A stretch of DNA of 49,826 nt, taken from the NCBI GenBank assembly GCA_043755475.1, contig JAYUSX010000439.1, positions 1 to 49,826 on the forward strand, written 5' to 3'. The DNA comes from Actinomycetota bacterium. GTDB taxonomy: Bacteria > Actinomycetota > Acidimicrobiia > Acidimicrobiales > Ilumatobacteraceae. The position numbers and the translations under genes are program-made. This document shows, one piece after another, positions 3,589-10,635 of this stretch; positions within the stretch are counted from its first letter, which is position 1, and each line of letters opens with the position of its first letter. The notes under the pieces were generated by a model. It ran no database searches, had not been told where the DNA came from, and saw only the letters and a list, made by a program, of their open reading frames with translations.

Positions 3589-4320
3589 TCAGGACTCGCG
3601 GGCGGTGGCGTCGATGATCCGACGCAGGTCGGCCGGCACCGGTAGCTGCCTGGCGTTCACGCGCTTCGCCACCTGCTGACCGAGGCCACCCTGGTCGACG
3701 ATCGCCCGGGCCACGGTGGAACCCAGCCGTCCGCCGACGCCGAGTTGCCCCGACGCCACCGCGGCGATGAGCGCGCTCGACACCTGTGCCGCGACCGGTT
3801 GCACTCGGGACCAATCAACCTGATCGGCCATGGCCTTCACCGTTCGGGCGGCATCGCCGGTGCGCTCGGCCGCAGCCGACTTCACCGTCGCCCAGTCGAC
3901 GTTGCGCAGCGCGGCCGCCACCTCGTCGGCGTCGGACGCGAGCATGTCGTCGAGATCGACCACACCGGAGGCGGGGCCCTGCGGCTCGGCGACACCGGAA
4001 CCGCCATCGGTCTCGGTCTCGGTCGCCTGGACGTCGGTCTCGGTCGCCTGGACGGTCGCCATGTCGGTCATGGCCTCCGTTGCCGCCGTCGCTGCGGTGG
4101 CGGATGCTTGGGCCGCCCCGCGCAGCAGGCCGAGAACCGCATCGAGTTGCTCCTTCGGCGAGGCCCAGATCGGCTGGGCAAGGCCTTCGTCGCCCCGTTT
4201 GCCGGCCTGGAACTCGTCGCGGAGCGTCTGCGTCGCATGCTTCACGCGACCTGTCACATCAGCGGCACGCACCGAGCGGGCAAGGCGGCCGGCCATGCCG
4301 GCAGGATCGAATCGGCCCAT
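3589..4320 (-). CDS. Hypothetical protein, Ala/Thr/Asp/Glu-rich with internal repeats
   Basis: This is the only frame here with natural composition; the overlapping plus-strand ORFs are Arg-rich artefacts. Contains an in-frame 21-bp tandem duplication (4014-4055) encoding VQATETD/VQATETE. No recognisable family. Confidence 0.55.
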   Translation of the reverse strand: MGRFDPAGMAGRLARSVRAADVTGRVKHATQTLRDEFQAGKRGDEGLAQPIWASPKEQLDAVLGLLRGAAQASATAATAATEAMTDMATVQATETDVQATETETDGGSGVAEPQGPASGVVDLDDMLASDADEVAAALRNVDWATVKSAAAERTGDAARTVKAMADQVDWSRVQPVAAQVSSALIAAVASGQLGVGGRLGSTVARAIVDQGGLGQQVAKRVNARQLPVPADLRRIIDATARES

Positions 4321-4358
4321 CGACGGTCACGCTAGCGGGGCTGCCAGAATCACGACCG

Positions 4359-5066
4359 ATGAGCACCGATCTGTCCTACCTGCGCGACGCCTACCTTTCC
4401 GAGTTCGAGGCGACGGTGGTCGACGTGCGCGACGGTGCGATCGCGCTCGACCGCACCGCGTTCTATCCCACCGGCGGCGGACAGCCGCACGACACCGGCA
4501 CGCTGGCCGGGCTCGCGGTGACCGATGTCCGCAAGGAGGACGAGGTCGTGTGGCATTCGGTGACCGGCGGCGAGTTGCCGGCCATCGGGTCGTCGGTTCG
4601 CGGCGAACTCGATTGGGACCGGCGACATCGGCTCATGCGCACACACACCGCGCTGCACGTGCTGTGCGGTGTGATCTGGAACGAGTGGCGGGTACCGGTG
4701 ACCGGCGGGAACATGGAGCCGTTGAGCGCACGAATGGATTTCGAGTTCGACCCGTTGCCGGACGGGTTCGGTGCGAGGGTCGAGGATCTCGTCAACGCCG
4801 AGCTCGCAGCCGACCGGGTCATCGAGGTGTCGTTCCTCCCGAGGTCGACGGCGGTGATGGACGAGGACCTGATCCGCACGAAGGTGTCGATGATCCCCTC
4901 GACCGTGACCGAGATACGTGTGGTCGACATCGTCGGCCTCGACAAACAGGCCGACGGCGGCACCCATGTGCGCTCCACCGGTGAAGTCGGCCGGATTCGT
5001 GTGATCAAGTTGGAGAACAAGGGCAAGGGCAACAAGCGCGTTCGGCTCGAGGTGGTCGACGCCTGA
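4359..5066 (+). CDS. alaX: AlaX-type alanyl/threonyl-tRNA editing domain protein (tRNA synthetase second additional domain family)
   Basis: Start chosen at ATG 4359 (MSTDLSYLRDAYL...), in frame within ORF 3786..5066. Motifs: FYPTGGGQPHD, HTALH (HxxxH), DGGTHV (position of the CxxxH motif), NKGKGNKRVRL tail. Confidence 0.85.
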   Translation: MSTDLSYLRDAYLSEFEATVVDVRDGAIALDRTAFYPTGGGQPHDTGTLAGLAVTDVRKEDEVVWHSVTGGELPAIGSSVRGELDWDRRHRLMRTHTALHVLCGVIWNEWRVPVTGGNMEPLSARMDFEFDPLPDGFGARVEDLVNAELAADRVIEVSFLPRSTAVMDEDLIRTKVSMIPSTVTEIRVVDIVGLDKQADGGTHVRSTGEVGRIRVIKLENKGKGNKRVRLEVVDA

Positions 5067-5164
5067 TGCCTTCGAGCGTGCAGGACAGGCCCGCCGCGTC
5101 GGGTTAGCCTTCGCCACCGACACCGGAGCGACCACCAGGATGGGGTCGAGGCTGAGGGGGATGA

Positions 5165-7867
5165 TTGACGCCGGACACGTTCGTGGAGCTCCATGGAGCG
5201 ACGTGCCTGCACTGCGGACATCGCACCGCTGCGGTGCTGTGCCCACGGTGCTCACACGACACCTCCATGGCCGGTCCTGTCCTCGTCCGCCCCGACACGG
5301 TGCGAGTCGGGTACATCGGTCGCGGCGGCACGGCCACGCCCGCGCTCTGGTTGCGAGCCCCTGTGGGGGCTGTCCGCCCGTCTGAGCAGCAGGCACCGAC
5401 GACCGAGGGTCCCGCCGATGCGGTGAGCCCACCCGAGGTGATCCTCGCCGATCCCACCAATCCGGCCGGAGTCGACATCACCGGTCCGACACCGATCGCA
5501 CCGCGCGCTCCGGCACCCGGCTCGCTCGTCGACACCATCGTCACCGCCGACGGACGCACGGTGGATGTGCTGGCCGACGGACCGAACGGTTTCGTGCCGG
5601 TGGGGGGCCTCACCGACATCCGTTGTGGCGTCGCCGCAGCACTGATCGCGTGCACCTGTCCGTCGCTGCTCGGTTGGGGCAACACCGAGATCGAACCCAC
5701 GCTGATCTCGACTCGGCTCGGCGTCGAACACGCCGTCGATCTGCCCCGCGCTCGACGCACCGCGTGCGAGCTCGCCACTGCCGGCCATCCCGAACTCGTG
5801 TCGCGCCTGCCGCTCAGCGCCGGTGAGATCTCGTGGTGGACCGGGCTCGGTCACCTCCGCCTCGGCGATCGGGATCGTGCCGCCGAGCAGTTCGGCCTGT
5901 TGCCGGCAAACGGGTACGCCGTGGTGACCGTCGTCTTGCGATGGGCGGCGCAGCGATGGGTCGGCGATGCCGCTTCGAACGCACGGTTCCTGCTGGGCAA
6001 GCGCTTGCACGGCACCGCGGCGCAACGCTTGACCCAGGTGAGCATCGCGTGCGGCATCACGCCGCTCGCCCGGTTCCTGCTCGACCCCGCAGCGGCACTC
6101 CCCGACTCGCTGCGGCGCCTGTCAGGGGTTGCGCCGAGCGTTGCCCGCGCCCTGGCGCTGAGTGGATCCGTGCTCGACGAACCGCTCGACGTGGGGCCGA
6201 ACGTGAGCTTGTCGGTGCTCGACGACCTGATCGACCTGAGCTCTCCGCTGGCGGCCGAGACCATGTCGGACGAGCAACGTCGCCACGTCACCGCCCGTAC
6301 CCGGCCAGAGGCCCTGAGCGATGACGACGTCGAACAGATCGGGCTCACGTTCGAGCGCGATCGACGACGGCTCGCAGCGGGTCGAATCGACGAGATCGAT
6401 GCCGGGTTCGCCGATGCCCATGTGCGCGGTGTGGTGCATCTCGTCGAACACGGCGAAGTGAGCGACGACCTGCGTCAGGTCGACCCGGAACGAGCCGATC
6501 AACTCGCGGACTTCCTTGCATCACCGTCACCGGCCACACTCACCCCCCGCCTCGTCGCCGATCCATCGCTGTGGCCGCTGTTGGCCCGCCGGCTCGACGT
6601 CGGACTGTGGAACTGGAAGAACGACCTCGATCCGCAGACACAGCGGTTCATCGGCTGGTACGCCCTGAGCGCGACGTTCGACCACCTGGTCGTCGGCGAT
6701 TGGACGAACGCTCTCGAAGCCGGGCACCATGCCCATCGGCTTGCCGCAGGCGACGACCAGCGCAGAGATGCGCTGAACCTGGTCGCGTTCGCGCTGTGGC
6801 AGCGCAACGACGGAGATGCAGCGCGCGACATCCTGTTGAGCGCGATCGGTGGCGCCGACGACGTGCCGTTGCGGGTGAACCTCGCCATCGTCGCGTCGAG
6901 CCTCGATCCCGAGTCGGCCGCACTCGAACTCGCCCGGCTCGTGCGCGACTCGGGTTCGTTGGAACTGCGTTGTGCAGCCGCCATGCGGGCTGTCCATCTG
7001 TGGAGCGATGACGAGCTGCCCTGGACCGTTCGTCGGCAACGTGCTGTGCCGGCGGCGCTCACCGAAGCCCTTCGGGAACTGGTGGTCGCCGACATCGACA
7101 TCGGCGTGTTCCGGTCGATCGCGGGCATGCAGTCGAACGTCGACCGGGAGTGGCTCGCCCGACCTGCGCACCTCGGTTCGTCGCCGCATCGCGCCACGCT
7201 GGAAGCGCGCGTGTACCAAGCGCGTGCAACGGGCCCCCGGGAGTACGTCGATGCGCTCACGTTCGCTCTTCGATCCGGCTCGGTGCCGGACTGGGTCGCA
7301 GCAGAACGCGACCGGGCGGTCGAGATCGCCGCCCGACACGTGTTCGACGACGACGGCTCGTGCGCGCTGTTCGCCCTCTTCGCGGTGCAACGCAAGATGC
7401 CCGTCACGGCCGACCATCGCTCGTTGCTCGCTCCCCTGGCGGTGCTCGCCGTGAGCGAACAGACCGAGCCGGGCAGCGACCCACCACCCGACACGTACCT
7501 GCAGTTGTTGGCCGACGCCGACTCCCACTGGAGCGACCGACGCCCCTCACCCCATCTGCTGCACGTGATGGACGCTGCGTGGGAGCGGCTCGCCACGTGC
7601 CATGTCCGCTTCCTCGAACTGGTCATCGATCGAATGGTCCAGGCGGTCGAAGACCTCGACCGGCGGCTTCGCCGCGACCCGCGCCAGCGACGCAACGTGC
7701 CTGCGCTGCGGGCAGCCTTGGAGCCGATCCTCGATGATGCAATCGCAGCCGACGACGTGCTCAGCGAGTTCCGTCCGCACGTTGCAGGAACACCGATCGC
7801 CCGCGAGATCGACGACCTGCTCCGAACGGTGCGAGACATCCGCCGGGCAACCATGAGGATGCTGTGA
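5165..7867 (+). CDS. Large hypothetical protein (900 aa) with N-terminal CxxC-x8-CxxC zinc-ribbon, Pro-rich linker and large helical body
   Basis: TTG start at 5165, preceded by GAGGGGGA. Zinc-ribbon-like CLHCGHRTAAVLCPRC near the N-terminus. No recognised catalytic motif. The stop overlaps the next gene (GTGA). Confidence 0.6.
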   Translation: MTPDTFVELHGATCLHCGHRTAAVLCPRCSHDTSMAGPVLVRPDTVRVGYIGRGGTATPALWLRAPVGAVRPSEQQAPTTEGPADAVSPPEVILADPTNPAGVDITGPTPIAPRAPAPGSLVDTIVTADGRTVDVLADGPNGFVPVGGLTDIRCGVAAALIACTCPSLLGWGNTEIEPTLISTRLGVEHAVDLPRARRTACELATAGHPELVSRLPLSAGEISWWTGLGHLRLGDRDRAAEQFGLLPANGYAVVTVVLRWAAQRWVGDAASNARFLLGKRLHGTAAQRLTQVSIACGITPLARFLLDPAAALPDSLRRLSGVAPSVARALALSGSVLDEPLDVGPNVSLSVLDDLIDLSSPLAAETMSDEQRRHVTARTRPEALSDDDVEQIGLTFERDRRRLAAGRIDEIDAGFADAHVRGVVHLVEHGEVSDDLRQVDPERADQLADFLASPSPATLTPRLVADPSLWPLLARRLDVGLWNWKNDLDPQTQRFIGWYALSATFDHLVVGDWTNALEAGHHAHRLAAGDDQRRDALNLVAFALWQRNDGDAARDILLSAIGGADDVPLRVNLAIVASSLDPESAALELARLVRDSGSLELRCAAAMRAVHLWSDDELPWTVRRQRAVPAALTEALRELVVADIDIGVFRSIAGMQSNVDREWLARPAHLGSSPHRATLEARVYQARATGPREYVDALTFALRSGSVPDWVAAERDRAVEIAARHVFDDDGSCALFALFAVQRKMPVTADHRSLLAPLAVLAVSEQTEPGSDPPPDTYLQLLADADSHWSDRRPSPHLLHVMDAAWERLATCHVRFLELVIDRMVQAVEDLDRRLRRDPRQRRNVPALRAALEPILDDAIAADDVLSEFRPHVAGTPIAREIDDLLRTVRDIRRATMRML

Positions 7868-8862
7868 GCGCCGCCGGCGACGATCGCCGCAACGCGTACG
7901 TCCTGCTCGGACTGACGTACGGAACATCCCTGGCCGAGGCGCGCCGAGCCTTCACCCGACGTGCCCGCGAGGCCCGCTGGGGAGACGGAACCGGTGCCGA
8001 CATCTCCGACCTCGAGTGGGCGCTCGCCAGAATCGAACTCGAACACAACGAACCAGCGGCGGCGTTCGGCACCTACCGGGTCCCGGCCGATCCGAACGTG
8101 CTTCGTCCGCCTGCCGGCTTCGGACTGCTGGCACCGATCCCCCGCGCCGCGACTCGGCGTTCTCCGATCACGCCTGAAGAGGAACGGGCGGTGGTGTTCG
8201 ACGCGGCGATGCGCGAAGCGGCCCAGCATCTGCTCGATCGGACCTCGGCTGCGGCAGGCCGCAAACTCGATCGGATCTCGGAGCTGCCGCTGCCGGCGGT
8301 GACGGTGCCGAACCTGCCGATTCGCAGACGAGGATGGGCGCCGGTGGTGCTGGTCGGTGTCGCCGCCCTCGCAGTGCTGGCGGTCGCAGGCGTCTCGGCG
8401 CTCACGAGCGACGACGCCGATCCCGACCTGTCGCCCATCGCCACCACACAGGTCGTACCCACCGACGTCGTCACGACATCGCCTGCCTCCACGGCAGCGC
8501 CCGACACCACCGCGGCATTCGGGAGCGAGCCCGGACTGGACGAGACGATCGAGGTGGCCGGCATCGAGATCACGCCCCATGACCCACTCGACGGCTACGG
8601 GCACCTGTGCCTGATCTTCACCCTCGATGGCGACGTGCCGTTGGGGTTCGTGCGCGAGAACGTCACCCTGATCTCGGGCGGCATCGCCTACGACGCCGCC
8701 CTCGGCGTGAACACCGGCCGCGCCCTCGCCACCGATGTGTTCGGCGACCCAGCACCGACCGATCGCGAGATCTGCTTCGCCGTCGAGGGCTGGCGAGATC
8801 GAAACACCGACCTTGTGTATGCGACGCAAGCGGGCAACTACCGCTGGAGGATCGGCACCTGA
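7864..8862 (+). CDS. Membrane protein with degenerate J-like N-terminal domain (no HPD), one TM helix and extracytoplasmic beta-rich domain
   Basis: GTG start overlaps the upstream stop by 4 nt. N-terminus NAYVLLGLTYGTSLAEARRAFTRRAREARWGDG resembles J-domain helices I-II, with WGD in place of HPD. TM helix: GWAPVVLVGVAALAVLAVAGVSAL. Confidence 0.6.
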   Translation: MSAAGDDRRNAYVLLGLTYGTSLAEARRAFTRRAREARWGDGTGADISDLEWALARIELEHNEPAAAFGTYRVPADPNVLRPPAGFGLLAPIPRAATRRSPITPEEERAVVFDAAMREAAQHLLDRTSAAAGRKLDRISELPLPAVTVPNLPIRRRGWAPVVLVGVAALAVLAVAGVSALTSDDADPDLSPIATTQVVPTDVVTTSPASTAAPDTTAAFGSEPGLDETIEVAGIEITPHDPLDGYGHLCLIFTLDGDVPLGFVRENVTLISGGIAYDAALGVNTGRALATDVFGDPAPTDREICFAVEGWRDRNTDLVYATQAGNYRWRIGT

Positions 8863-8976
8863 CGTGACATCCGGTCCACGGCCCGACGATCTCGACGGGC
8901 GTGAGACACTGAGTCGGGCGTGAGACACACGGTCGAGGGTGGCCGGCGTGTCCGACTACTCTGCCGTCACGTCAGG
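8858..8976. promoter_or_regulatory. 11-bp inverted repeat (CCTGACGTGAC / GTCACGTCAGG) enclosing two 14-bp direct repeats (CGGGCGTGAGACAC at 8896-8909 and 8915-8928), upstream of the MFS-cNMP gene
   Basis: Read directly from the sequence. Sits in the 132-nt gap upstream of ATG 8995. Function not established. Confidence 0.35.
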
Positions 8977-8994
8977 GGAAGGTCGAGCGGTGCG

Positions 8995-10635
8995 ATGAAG
9001 GTGGGCAGCGGACAGCTCGCGCTGATCGGACGGGTTGCACGGGCCAAGGAGTTGCGGCGGCTCAACCTCGCATTCGTCGCTTTTGCGATCAGCGAGCACG
9101 CCAGCTGGCTCGCCGTGCTGTTCTATGCGTTGGAGCGAGGCGGTGCCGAAGAGGTCGGCCTCGTCGCCGTCGTCCAGCTCGCGCCGGCCGTGTTGCTGAC
9201 CCCCTTCTCGTCGTTGGCAGGCGACCGCTTCTCTCCACGCACTGCTCTTGCGGCCGGCTACGGCGCACAGTGCGTCGCGATGACCGCGACCGCTGCTGCG
9301 ATGTGGGCGGATGCGCCGGTTCTCGCGTATGTGTGCGCCGCAGGCGCTGCGACGGCCGTGAGCTTCACCCGGCCGGTGATGGGGGCTCTGCTGCCCACGG
9401 TCGCCCGCACGCCGCGCGACCTGGTGGCGGTGAACGTGGTGTCGGGGTTGATCGAGCAGGTGGGGGTGTTCGTCGGCCCGGTGATCGCGGGCGTGACGAT
9501 CGCCGTCTCGTCGCCCGCGGGAGCTTTTGTGATGACGGCAGGGCTCACCGGGGTGGCGTGCATCGCGACGTTGGGGGTGCCTGCCGGCGCCGACGAGCGC
9601 ATCCGCAGCATCCATGCACGCGGCGCCCTCGGGGCCGCGTTCGCCGGATTCACCGTCCTCCGCCACACGCCGCACCTACGTATCCTGCTGATCTTCATCG
9701 CCTGCGCCGGGCTCGCAAAGGGAGTCGGTGACTGGGCGTTCGTGGTCCTCGCCGAGGATCGGCTCGGGTCCGGCGGCGGTGGCGCCGGTCTGCTGGCGGG
9801 CGCAGCCGGCGTCGGTGGATTCGCAGGCGCCATCGCGACAGCGCGGCTCGGGCAGGCCGGCAACGTCATCGGTCAGTTCTCGGTCGCGTCGGCGTGCATC
9901 GTGGTGGCCATCGCCGTCACATCGGTCGTCGACCACCTCGTGCCCGCCCTGCTCGCAATGGGAGCGCTGGGCGCCGGCGGGACCGTCTTGGTGATCACCA
10001 GCGTGGTGTGCGTCCAACGCCAGACCCCGTCGGACGTGCTGGCCAGGGTCTCCGGGATCGTGGAGGGTGCGCTGATGGCCTCGATGGCAGCAGGGTCGTT
10101 CGTGCTCTCCCTCCTGGTCCGCCGAGCGTCGCTCGGCGCGGCGTTCGTGATCGTCGCTGCCGCGATCGCGCTCGTGCTGCTGATCGCCGTCGGGTTGCTG
10201 CGTCGCAACAGCGACGAGTTGGCCCCGGTCGACGAGGCGATCGTCGCCCGGCTGCTCGACGATCCGGTCTTCTCGCCACTGTCGGCACCCACGATCGAGC
10301 GGCTGGCCCGTCACGCCGAACGACTTTCGATCGGCACCGGCGAGTCGATCATCCGGCAGGGCGATCCGGGCGACCGCTACTACGTGGTGCTCGGGGGCAC
10401 GGTCGCGATCGACCAGGACGGCCAGCGGATTCGAGAGCTGTCAGCGGGAGACTCGTTCGGGGAGATCGCCCTCATGCGCGACGTGCCGCGCACGGCAACC
10501 GCAACGGCGACGTCAGTGGTCGAGCTCATCGCCGTGGAGCGGGACGACTTCCTCGCCGCCGTCACCGGCCACTCGCGGGCGCTGGCGACCGCCCATGGCG
10601 TCGTCGACGGCTTCCTCGACCCGCACGATCGTTGA
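8995..10635 (+). CDS. MFS transporter fused to a C-terminal cyclic-nucleotide-binding (CAP-effector) domain
   Basis: About 12 hydrophobic segments. The C-terminus IIRQGDPGDRYYVVLGGTV...LSAGDSFGEIALMRDVPRTATA is a canonical cNMP-binding signature. Start set at ATG 8995. Confidence 0.85.
   Translation: MKVGSGQLALIGRVARAKELRRLNLAFVAFAISEHASWLAVLFYALERGGAEEVGLVAVVQLAPAVLLTPFSSLAGDRFSPRTALAAGYGAQCVAMTATAAAMWADAPVLAYVCAAGAATAVSFTRPVMGALLPTVARTPRDLVAVNVVSGLIEQVGVFVGPVIAGVTIAVSSPAGAFVMTAGLTGVACIATLGVPAGADERIRSIHARGALGAAFAGFTVLRHTPHLRILLIFIACAGLAKGVGDWAFVVLAEDRLGSGGGGAGLLAGAAGVGGFAGAIATARLGQAGNVIGQFSVASACIVVAIAVTSVVDHLVPALLAMGALGAGGTVLVITSVVCVQRQTPSDVLARVSGIVEGALMASMAAGSFVLSLLVRRASLGAAFVIVAAAIALVLLIAVGLLRRNSDELAPVDEAIVARLLDDPVFSPLSAPTIERLARHAERLSIGTGESIIRQGDPGDRYYVVLGGTVAIDQDGQRIRELSAGDSFGEIALMRDVPRTATATATSVVELIAVERDDFLAAVTGHSRALATAHGVVDGFLDPHDR

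What the first reader, a model, noticed from the sequence alone, without database searches (positions are those of the whole stretch)
5165..8862. Uncharacterised coupled pair: 900-aa zinc-ribbon protein plus J-like (HPD-less) single-pass membrane protein
Gene 1 begins with a CxxC-x8-CxxC ribbon (CLHCGHRTAAVLCPRC), followed by a Pro-rich linker and about 750 residues of helical sequence with no motif I can assign. Gene 2 starts at a GTG that overlaps gene 1's stop (GTGA at 7864-7867). Its N-terminus resembles J-domain helices I-II (AYVLLGL...LAEARRAF) but has WGD where HPD should be. That is followed by a TM helix and an extracytoplasmic beta-rich domain. The pairing suggests a transmembrane module that links an outside sensor or binding domain to a large cytoplasmic partner through a degenerate J domain. 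I cannot match it to a described system.
Basis: inference. Interest (0 to 1): 0.6.

Follow-up and report, generated by a model that had tools for sequence, protein, structure and literature searches.

The report
Orphaned scaffold and J-like membrane pair
These two overlapping genes are real and conserved; they look like the surviving half of a little-studied private Hsp70 chaperone machine, kept in this freshwater actinobacterium after the Hsp70 itself was lost and the J-like partner became a membrane protein.

Summary
Gene 1 (5165-7867) and gene 2 (7864-8862) overlap by GTGA, evolve under purifying selection (dN/dS 0.06-0.34), and occur together in all 8 genomes that carry either.

Gene 1 is a zinc ribbon, a small beta unit and a TPR-like helical solenoid. 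Gene 2 has an N-terminal J-like domain: profile-profile probability 95% against real J domains, over helices I-II only, and no HPD in any relative. A TM helix and an MPT63/YjhA-like beta-sandwich follow.

The new result is the context. Distant relatives of gene 1 (Acidimicrobiia, Streptomyces, Actinocorallia, a Gemmatimonas MAG, metagenomes) sit in the operon scaffold, short J-like protein, small GrpE-like protein, divergent Hsp70. At least one of the last two is present in 20 of 21 informative loci. Those Hsp70s keep their ATPase motifs but lack DnaK's J-contact arginine.

On the gene 1 tree the window's clade is nested among them. It has no such Hsp70 or exchange factor, and only here does the J-like protein carry the TM helix and ectodomain.

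Best reading: a membrane-tethered scaffold derived from a private Hsp70 machine. Whether it still uses an Hsp70 is open.

This scan has noted similar Hsp70 modules on other DNA. I found no published description.

The parts
5153..5160 (+). Shine-Dalgarno-like GAGGGGGA ahead of the TTG start of gene 1
   Evidence: Read directly from the sequence. An in-frame TGA at 5162-5164 excludes a longer ORF.
5165..7867 (+). Gene 1: 900-aa cytoplasmic scaffold (zinc ribbon, small beta unit, TPR-like solenoid, C-terminal long-helix bundle)
   Evidence: Translation. 25 close homologues and 346 cluster representatives at E<=1e-3. AF2 model with pLDDT 79. dN/dS 0.065-0.22.
5204..5251 (+). Zinc ribbon CxxC-x8-CxxC (residues 14-29)
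   Evidence: C17, C26 and C29 invariant and C14 over 90% in alignment A3. Pfam DZR/Zn_Ribbon hits in distant members P0069 and P0130.
5357..5527 (+). Pro-rich, disordered insert (about residues 65-121), specific to this clade
   Evidence: Present only in the window's closest relatives in A1. pLDDT below 50.
6614..7045 (+). TPR-like core (residues 484-627) with invariant N538 and N572 and conserved R608
   Evidence: VIA-align Z 9.5-11.8 to three-repeat TPR domains that bind Hsp70/Hsp90 C-terminal tails (below the tool's caution line for helical folds). Column counts. Weak Pfam TPR hits.
7544..7864 (+). C-terminal long-helix bundle (residues 794-900)
   Evidence: AF2 helices 796-837, 845-873 and 877-899. 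Z 9.9-11.2 to BAG-domain three-helix bundles; a lead only.
7864..7867 (+). GTGA start/stop overlap (translational coupling)
   Evidence: The same 4-nt overlap occurs in L058, L059, L126, L128, L129, L130 and L132.
7864..8862 (+). Gene 2: 332-aa bitopic membrane protein (J-like domain, linker, TM helix, Thr-rich linker, beta-sandwich)
   Evidence: Translation. 24 homologues. AF2 model. dN/dS 0.064-0.34.
7885..8064 (+). J-like domain without HPD (residues 8-67; R38-W39-G40 at the HPD position)
   Evidence: hhalign against 32 real J domains: 95.2% and 95.1% probability, E about 3e-8, controls 0.3-0.6%. Predicted helices 11-14, 23-36, 47-62 and 64-67. The Pfam DnaJ model does not detect it.
8074..8163 (+). 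Conserved linear motif YRVPADP...GFGLL.P.PR (residues 71-100)
   Evidence: Conserved in A2 and in the short J-like proteins of distant operons. pLDDT below 50.
8335..8403 (+). TM helix (about residues 158-180), preceded by RRR, so the N-terminus is cytoplasmic
   Evidence: AF2 helix 159-180. Invariant R154 and R156 (R155 over 90%) ahead of the hydrophobic run. Positive-inside rule (established knowledge).
8530..8859 (+). Extracytoplasmic MPT63/YjhA-like (DUF4352-type) beta-sandwich (residues 223-332) with invariant C249 and C304
   Evidence: VIA-align: YjhA 3cfu_B Z 10.6 (rmsd 2.8, 105 aligned), MPT63 1lmi_A Z 10.0 (rmsd 3.2, 104 aligned), YcdA Z 9.0. Foldseek: YxkC, CD630_09570. No Pfam hit.

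Best explanation
The two genes encode a coupled pair that most likely forms a complex at the inner face of the membrane. Gene 1 is a cytoplasmic adaptor: an N-terminal zinc ribbon followed by a TPR-like solenoid. Gene 2 is a bitopic membrane protein. Its cytoplasmic N-terminus is a degenerate J domain, and its outside part is an MPT63/YjhA-like beta-sandwich.

Shown here:
- Both proteins descend from the first two components of a conserved operon: scaffold, J-like protein, small GrpE-like protein, divergent Hsp70.
- No such Hsp70 or exchange factor was found next to the pair in the window's lineage, nor anywhere in the five genomes of that lineage searched.
- The TM helix and ectodomain on the J-like protein are seen only in this lineage.
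- Both genes remain under purifying selection.

Inferred:
- The J-like domain acts here as a docking adaptor that tethers the scaffold to the membrane. It does not act as an HPD-type ATPase trigger.
- The ectodomain binds an envelope or external ligand.
- The pair therefore couples something outside the cell to a protein-binding platform inside.
- In the ancestral four-gene machine, the scaffold probably selects or positions clients for the private Hsp70. It may dock that Hsp70's conserved C-terminal tail in its TPR groove.
For: Pairing:
- tblastn finds both genes side by side in 7 of 7 other genomes with a gene 1 hit, including one at 35% / 32% identity.
- The 4-nt overlap is conserved.

J-like identity:
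- hhalign gives 95% probability against J domains, with controls below 1%.
- The predicted helix pattern fits a J domain.

Hsp70 heritage:
- Of 24 distant loci, 21 have informative downstream DNA. 20 of these carry the small protein and/or an Hsp70 paralog right after gene 1's homologue; 17 have the Hsp70 and 13 have a J-like homologue.
- Pfam HSP70 E-values are 1e-62 to 1e-75.
- Fusions link the parts. P0201 is an Hsp70 NBD fused to a scaffold. L136 has a J-like domain inside a scaffold-like ORF.

Remodelled interface: the 15 module Hsp70s keep GIDFGTTNS, NEPTAAA and DxGGGTxD. They replace DnaK's R167 equivalent with A/G/T/V, PAYF(D/N)D with PANSRG, and the VLLLDV linker. R167 contacts the Asp of HPD (PMC8215388).

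Loss in this lineage:
- The best Hsp70 match in G000, G280, G240, G431 and G238 is housekeeping DnaK at 33%. Module Hsp70s are 41-53% identical to each other.
- The small protein was not found in those five genomes.
- The two-gene clade groups with the Hsp70-linked L057 at 100% SH-aLRT and is nested among Hsp70-linked clades.

Still functional: dN/dS 0.06-0.34.

Ectodomain fold: Z 10.0-10.6.
Against: - No direct evidence of a physical complex. No multimer prediction or experiment was possible.
- The J-like match covers only helices I-II (29-34 columns), and the Pfam DnaJ model does not see it.
- The tree root is a midpoint. A root inside the 8-row clade would reverse the direction (gain instead of loss).
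- G000 is only 75% complete. The empty search for the small protein had no positive control among those genomes.
- The genus carries several other Hsp70-NBD proteins that could serve in trans.
- The TPR-clamp and BAG-like similarities are below the Z 13 caution line for helical folds.
- Several loci are near-duplicates (L133-135, L127/128, L062/063), so independent counts are lower.
Confidence: 0.55

Rival explanations
1. The pair is still an Hsp70 co-chaperone set. It recruits housekeeping DnaK, or one of the genus's other Hsp70-NBD proteins, in trans. The scaffold acts as client selector, the J-like domain as a non-canonical regulator, and the membrane anchor localises the activity.
For: - All distant relatives are Hsp70-linked.
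- The scaffold keeps the residues conserved across Hsp70-linked members: N538, N572, R608.
- Genomes of the genus carry 1-5 extra Hsp70-NBD ORFs.
- The linker after the J-like domain (GFGLLAPIPRAATRR) looks like a DnaK-binding peptide (own knowledge).
Against: - There is no HPD. DnaK of this genus keeps the canonical R167-type patch that needs it.
- DnaK ends in ...EIVDEK, not in the module tail.
- The extra NBD paralogs occur in pair-negative genomes too.
Confidence: 0.22
2. The pair is the sensor part of a conflict (anti-phage or anti-invader) system related to the Hsp70/GrpE theme of GTPase-centred conflict systems. The ectodomain or scaffold detects an invader.
For: - Patchy distribution: 6 of 13 other sampled genomes of the genus, 9 of the 300 other genomes of the family sample, and only one weak partial match (E 2e-4) among the 200 other genomes of the order sample.
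- Flanks vary.
- Some relatives sit next to a vWA, kinase-like, PP2C triad (L059), a vWA gene (L140) or a tubulin-like gene (L134).
- Kaur et al. 2020 describe Hsp70 plus GrpE with DnaJ- or TPR-fused partners in actinobacterial GAP1-N2 systems (PMC7159879).
Against: - No PADLOC hit for any component.
- No effector domain in or next to the pair.
- No neighbour beyond the four core genes is conserved across loci.
- No mobile-element or defence-island marks in the window flanks (AlaX-like gene, MFS transporter).
Confidence: 0.13
3. The pair is a decaying remnant with no function, left over after the Hsp70 and exchange factor were lost.
For: Two of the four core genes are missing.
Against: - dN/dS is 0.06-0.34 in both genes across 7 genomes, with intact frames and conserved coupling.
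- A new TM helix and ectodomain were gained and conserved, down to 32% identity in G238.
Confidence: 0.03

Closest known systems
Unnamed private Hsp70 operon: TPR-like scaffold, HPD-less J-like protein, GrpE-like protein, divergent Hsp70
   Same: Gene 1 and the N-terminal 115 residues of gene 2 are homologous to the first two genes of this operon (HMM E-values 1e-97 to 1e-248 for the scaffold and 1e-13 to 1e-25 for the J-like part). Gene order and the 4-nt overlap are the same.
   Different: The window's clade lacks the Hsp70 and the GrpE-like gene. Its J-like protein carries a TM helix and a beta-sandwich ectodomain that the 135-152 aa relatives do not have. I did not test homology to the five-gene modules in the earlier scan notes; there the zinc ribbon is a separate gene.
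Canonical J-domain proteins (DnaJ/CbpA/DjlA; Pfam PF00226)
   Same: Helices I-II align at profile level (95% probability). The predicted four-helix pattern fits. Relatives are genomically linked to an Hsp70.
   Different: No HPD: R-W-G here, and no HPD in any of about 20 relatives. The Pfam model does not match. The cognate Hsp70s of relatives have lost the Arg that HPD's Asp contacts. HPD is present in about 99% of J domains and needed for ATPase stimulation (PMC13580251, PMC8215388).
E. coli HscC with DjlB/DjlC and the Sel1/TPR-like YbeQ/YbeT (ybeQ to hscC locus)
   Same: A specialised Hsp70 encoded beside dedicated J proteins and TPR-type repeat proteins. DjlC is reported to be membrane-anchored (own knowledge, not checked here).
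   Different: HscC keeps the R167 equivalent and PAYF, and DjlC keeps HPD. Module Hsp70s are only 27-32% identical to HscC, no closer than to DnaK. The E. coli locus has no GrpE-like gene, and the window has no Hsp70 at all.
HSP70/GrpE theme of GAP1-N2 DO-GTPase conflict systems (Kaur, Burroughs, Iyer, Aravind 2020, PMC7159879)
   Same: Occurs in actinobacteria. Hsp70 plus GrpE with DnaJ- or TPR-fused partners, zinc ribbons and membrane proximity. One relative (L134) has a tubulin-like neighbour as in those systems.
   Different: No neighbour beyond the four core genes recurs across the loci I examined, GTPase or otherwise. I had no GAP1 or DO-GTPase profile to test directly.
MPT63 / YjhA / YcdA / YxkC beta-sandwich proteins (DUF4352-type)
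   Same: The ectodomain of gene 2 matches their fold (Z 9.0-10.6, about 103-105 aligned residues). As in those proteins, it is extracytoplasmic.
   Different: 8-13% sequence identity and no Pfam hit. Here the domain is fused to a cytoplasmic J-like domain through one TM helix.

Membership tests
J domain (PF00226) | Four-helix J fold with helices I-II matching the family profile | tested here: met
   hhalign 95.2% and 95.1%, E about 3e-8, 29-34 columns, controls 0.3-0.6%. AF2 helices 11-14, 23-36, 47-62 and 64-67. Helices III-IV are not aligned at sequence level.
J domain (PF00226) | HPD tripeptide between helices II and III | tested here: not met
   R38-W39-G40 aligns to H-P-D. No relative has HPD at that position.
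J domain (PF00226) | Match to the curated Pfam model above its gathering score | tested here: not met
   No PF00226 hit at E<=1 on the protein or at E<=10 on the genome. Two relatives reach E 1e-3 to 1e-4 against a local J-domain HMM.
J domain (PF00226) | Stimulates the ATPase of a partner Hsp70 | not testable with these tools
   Needs an ATPase assay.
Private Hsp70 operon (scaffold, J-like, GrpE-like, Hsp70) | Zinc-ribbon/TPR-like scaffold homologue | tested here: met
   Gene 1 aligns end to end with the scaffolds of Hsp70-linked loci.
Private Hsp70 operon (scaffold, J-like, GrpE-like, Hsp70) | HPD-less J-like protein encoded right after the scaffold | tested here: met
   The N-terminus of gene 2 is homologous to the short J-like proteins.
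Private Hsp70 operon (scaffold, J-like, GrpE-like, Hsp70) | Dedicated divergent Hsp70 with a remodelled J-contact patch | tested here: not met
   None in the window. In G000, G280, G240, G431 and G238 the best match is DnaK at 33%. G000 is 75% complete.
Private Hsp70 operon (scaffold, J-like, GrpE-like, Hsp70) | Small GrpE-like protein | tested here: not met
   The A6 profile found nothing in the five genomes (no positive control among them). The GrpE likeness of this protein is itself only a lead.
TPR carboxylate-clamp co-chaperone domains (HOP TPR1, Sti1 TPR2B, Sgt2, Tah1) | Three-repeat TPR fold with clamp Asn and basic residues that bind a C-terminal tail | tested here: inconclusive
   Z 9.5-11.8 over residues 484-627, below the Z 13 caution line for helical folds. 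N538 35/36, N572 36/36 and R608 28/36 conserved. Module Hsp70s share a [YH][SA][YF]L[LFIW] C-terminus. Binding not tested.
MPT63/YjhA-like beta-sandwich (DUF4352-type) | Fold match over the whole domain | tested here: met
   3cfu_B Z 10.6 (rmsd 2.8, 105 aligned) and 1lmi_A Z 10.0 (rmsd 3.2, 104 aligned), clearly above generic Ig hits at Z about 6.
MPT63/YjhA-like beta-sandwich (DUF4352-type) | Sequence match to the Pfam family model | tested here: not met
   No Pfam hit at E<=1.
HscC/DjlC-type system | HscC-clade Hsp70 and an HPD-bearing DjlB/DjlC-type J protein | tested here: not met
   Module Hsp70s are 27-32% identical to HscC. HscC keeps R167 and PAYF, and DjlC has HPD at residue 196. The window has no Hsp70.
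GAP1-N2 DO-GTPase conflict system | DO-GTPase and GAP1 genes in the neighbourhood | tested here: inconclusive
   No gene beyond the four core genes recurs across 30 loci. I had no GAP1 or DO-GTPase profile to test directly.

The most novel reading that the evidence does not exclude
A J-like domain and its TPR scaffold have been freed from any Hsp70. They now work as a stand-alone transmembrane coupling device, in which an MPT63-like outside domain controls a cytoplasmic protein-binding platform. This would be a natural case of a J-fold serving purely as a docking adaptor. It would also be an evolutionary snapshot of a chaperone machine turning into a signalling or anchoring module.
Probability: 0.3. 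Interest if true: 0.7.

Novelty: new variant of a known kind. Interest (0 to 1): 0.55.

Why it matters
[quoted passage not shown] This locus bears on that gap in three ways.

1. It defines an unannotated scaffold family: 346 cluster representatives and no Pfam or NCBIfam model.
2. In the full operon, the HPD motif of the J partner and the Arg on the Hsp70 that contacts it are both gone. This points to an interface insulated from DnaK/DnaJ, and simple ATPase assays could test it.
3. The window gives the natural 'minus-Hsp70' variant. What the scaffold and J-like pair do alone should show which functions of the machine need the ATPase.

Practical point: several database entries for gene 1 homologues start at an internal Met and so lose the conserved zinc ribbon.

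Tried and rejected
- Pfam, NCBIfam and PADLOC scans of both proteins gave nothing above noise.
Contexts came from the genome search, the fetch from genomes and the search for related loci instead.
- Sampled searches of 200 genomes of the order and 400 of the phylum found almost nothing. The family is rare in representative genomes.
- Foldseek on the whole gene 1 model gave only generic TPR/solenoid giants such as Ski3 and Ctr9, with TM about 0.2.
- A profile of the small protein against PDB sequences gave only coiled-coil noise. hhalign to GrpE reached only 27% probability.
- I looked for a module-type Hsp70 or a presence/absence correlation among the many Hsp70-NBD paralogs of the genus. There is no ortholog and no clear correlation.
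- tblastx appeared to show gene 1 remnants next to AlaX in pair-negative genomes. This was high-GC noise; the HMMs found nothing.
- No C-terminal sliding-clamp motif, which earlier notes reported for other scaffolds, is present here. Gene 1 ends ...RRATMRML.
- No sigma-70-like promoter or intrinsic terminator was found in 4900-9100.
- No RNA holder was listed for the stretch, so expression is untested.
- Literature searches found no description of this operon.


Full report
**What is in the window**

That genome is a 516-contig assembly estimated 75% complete.

Gene 1 (5165-7867, + strand) starts at a TTG. The TTG follows an in-frame TGA and a GAGGGGGA run. Gene 2 (7864-8862) starts at a GTG inside the GTGA that ends gene 1, with AGGA 5 nt upstream.

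Upstream lies an AlaX-type editing protein. Downstream lies an MFS transporter fused to a cNMP-binding domain. Simple scans found no promoter-like or terminator-like site in 4900-9100.

**Are the genes real?**

Yes. Gene 1 has 25 homologues in the 90%-clustered protein collection, 24 of them at 43-97% identity. Gene 2 has 24. All named ones come from Acidimicrobiales or 'Actinobacteria' MAGs.

Pairwise dN/dS against six genomes of the genus is 0.065-0.22 for gene 1 and 0.064-0.34 for gene 2.

Several database entries start gene 1 at Met35 and so cut off the zinc ribbon. Three ribbon cysteines are invariant, and the fourth is over 90% conserved, in a 36-member alignment of 21-61% identity. The TTG start is therefore the right one. 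The Pro-rich stretch (residues 65-121) is a disordered insert found only in this clade.

**Co-occurrence and distribution**

- In the order sample, 1 of the 200 other genomes gave a hit, and it was a weak partial one.
- In the family sample, 9 of the 300 other genomes gave a hit, among them 6 of 13 other genomes of the genus.
- In every genome with a substantial gene 1 match (7 of 7), gene 2 lies directly downstream. This includes G238 at 35% / 32% identity.
- Flanks differ between genomes: MFS, Laminin_G/PKD proteins, a short-chain dehydrogenase, a CoA-transferase.
- Pair-negative genomes of the genus keep AlaX but have no trace of the pair beside it.

The pair is therefore a co-inherited, patchily distributed two-gene unit.

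**Anatomy of gene 2**

The AF2 model (pLDDT 64 overall, 74-88 in the last domain) shows these elements:
- helices 11-14, 23-36, 47-62 and 64-67;
- a disordered conserved linker (YRVPADP...GFGLL.P.PR);
- a helix at 105-131;
- a TM helix at about 158-180, preceded by RRR;
- a Thr-rich linker;
- a beta-sandwich at 223-332.

The sandwich matches YjhA (Z 10.6), MPT63 (Z 10.0), YcdA and related DUF4352-type proteins. Generic Ig folds score about Z 6. Two cysteines in it are invariant, which fits an extracytoplasmic disulfide (inference).

The N-terminus aligns to a profile of 32 real J domains with 95% probability (E about 3e-8). Controls against unrelated profiles gave 0.3-0.6%. The alignment spans helices I-II and places R-W-G on H-P-D. 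The Pfam DnaJ model does not detect the protein.

It is therefore J-like and cannot be filed as a canonical J domain.

**Anatomy of gene 1**

The AF2 model (pLDDT 79) has a zinc ribbon, a few beta strands, and an all-helical body from residue 155 to 900 that ends in very long helices. Whole-model Foldseek gives only large TPR solenoids at low TM-score.

VIA-align matches two parts:
- Residues 484-627 match three-repeat TPR domains that bind Hsp70/Hsp90 C-terminal tails (FKBP38, Tah1, Sec72, Sgt2, HOP TPR1, Sti1 TPR2B; Z 9.5-11.8).
- Residues 794-900 match BAG-type three-helix bundles (Z 9.9-11.2).

These scores are below the tool's caution line for helical folds, so I treat both as leads. N538 and N572, one repeat apart, are conserved in 35 and 36 of 36 sequences across the family.

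**The decisive context**

A profile search of 1.84 billion representatives found 346 family members (291 at E<=1e-10). Most are 800-950 aa and many start with a zinc ribbon. One member (P0201) carries an N-terminal Hsp70 nucleotide-binding domain.

Fetching distant relatives gave 24 loci: 7 from genomes (a Gemmatimonas MAG, two Acidimicrobiia MAGs, three Streptomyces, one Actinocorallia) and 17 from metagenomes. Mapping with local HMMs and Pfam gave this:

| Observation | Count |
|---|---|
| Loci with informative downstream DNA | 21 of 24 |
| Of those, scaffold followed by the conserved small protein (about 160-240 aa) and/or an Hsp70 paralog | 20 of 21 |
| Loci with the Hsp70 (Pfam E 1e-62 to 1e-75 in the four scanned) | 17 |
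| Loci with a short (135-152 aa) homologue of gene 2's N-terminus, usually overlapping the scaffold gene by 4 nt | 13 |

Some loci are near-duplicates, so the independent count is lower. No other neighbour recurs.

The small protein is possibly GrpE-like: Atlas structural TM-score 0.61 to a GrpE cluster, and hhalign 27% probability. In L136 the J-like domain is fused inside a scaffold-like ORF.

**The Hsp70 of the full module**

The 15 module Hsp70s are 41-53% identical to each other where compared. They are about 33% identical to DnaK and 27-32% to E. coli HscC.

They keep the ATPase motifs. Three other elements have changed:
- The equivalent of DnaK R167 is A, G, T or V.
- PAYF(D/N)D reads PANSRG.
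- The VLLLDV linker reads DFFVSTEH or similar.

R167 is the residue that binds the Asp of HPD (PMC8215388). The loss of HPD in the partner is thus mirrored on the Hsp70. E. coli HscC keeps R167 and its J protein DjlC keeps HPD.

Eleven module Hsp70s whose C-termini I printed end in a shared [YH][SA][YF]L[LFIW] tail. That tail could be the ligand of the scaffold's TPR groove (inference).

**What happened in the window's lineage**

No module-type Hsp70 and no small protein were found in five genomes that carry the two-gene form, three of them 94-98% complete.

On a gene 1 tree, the two-gene forms plus the Hsp70-linked L057 make a 100%-supported clade, nested among Hsp70-linked clades under midpoint rooting. 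One loss explains the pattern.

The TM helix and ectodomain occur only in this clade. The L057 protein ends at ...KRRRF, exactly where the window's protein continues into its TM helix.

**Interpretation**

Shown: homology, coupling, co-conservation, purifying selection, the derived Hsp70-less state, and the domain folds.

Inferred: the J-like domain docks the scaffold and tethers it under the membrane, while the ectodomain binds something outside. The pair may still borrow an Hsp70 in trans (rival 1), and it may have a role in conflict (rival 2). Neither can be settled with these tools.

**Comparison with what is known**

No paper I found describes this operon. The nearest published items are:
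- the HscC/DjlB/DjlC locus of E. coli;
- the Hsp70/GrpE theme of GAP1-N2 GTPase systems (PMC7159879).

Earlier AI notes of this scan report similar five-gene modules (TPR scaffold, HPD-less J-like, GrpE-like, Hsp70, zinc-ribbon protein) in other phyla. I did not test homology to those. Here the zinc ribbon is fused to the scaffold. Two relatives (L058, L130) also have a separate zinc-ribbon membrane protein after the Hsp70.

**Data handling**

The unpublished genomes G497 and G514 appeared.

Noticed in passing
L058:7184-8296 and L130:6237-7865: In two related four-gene operons a fifth, translationally coupled gene follows the Hsp70. It encodes a protein with two CxxC...CxxC ribbons, a TM helix and an outside domain (Septum_form in L130). 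The module is thus tied to the membrane in a different way from the window's.
   Followed up: partly
L059:7844-10493; L140:11026-12102: A vWA gene, a kinase-like gene and a PP2C phosphatase gene follow the Hsp70 operon in L059, like a TerY-P-type triad. A vWA gene follows it in L140.
   Followed up: partly
L134:1086-6602: A 1075-aa tubulin-like protein (Pfam Tubulin_2) and a 761-aa unknown protein lie just upstream of a short-scaffold, small protein, Hsp70 set. This resembles the actinobacterial tubulin theme of GAP1-N2 systems.
   Followed up: no
Module Hsp70s, e.g. L058:5451-7184, L126:9707-11395: The 11 module Hsp70s whose ends I printed finish in a conserved hydrophobic tail [YH][SA][YF]L[LFIW]. 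It is reminiscent in position, though not in sequence, of the eukaryotic EEVD tail that TPR co-chaperones bind.
   Followed up: partly
G280:C4:291496-293709; G240:C15; G000:C122:1249-1887: Genomes of this genus carry several very large ORFs (about 700-2070 aa) that contain only an Hsp70 nucleotide-binding domain. In G280 two of them are divergently arranged. They are unrelated to the pair by sequence.
   Followed up: no
G312:C87:4035-4175: An 885-aa ORF with an N-terminal J domain (PF00226, 28.6 bits) in a pair-positive genome. It is not near the pair.
   Followed up: no
L057 (contig labelled Gemmatimonas sp. MAG): Its scaffold is the closest Hsp70-linked relative of the Acidimicrobiia two-gene clade (100% support), and its J-like gene sits after the Hsp70. 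The 8.8-kb contig may be mis-binned, or the operon was transferred.
   Followed up: no
window 3786-5066: The long ORF that contains the AlaX-like gene has an Arg/Pro-rich, spurious-looking N-terminal 190 residues. The conserved part begins near 4359, as another note of this scan already says.
   Followed up: no
L133-L135, L137, L138; L062, L063: Short scaffold forms of 508-576 aa (L137 is cut off by the contig end) cover only part of the family profile: positions 445-869, or 208-525 in the two Streptomyces loci. All loci that extend downstream keep the small protein and the Hsp70, and no J-like gene was detected. This hints that the J-like protein goes with the N-terminal half of the scaffold.
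   Followed up: partly
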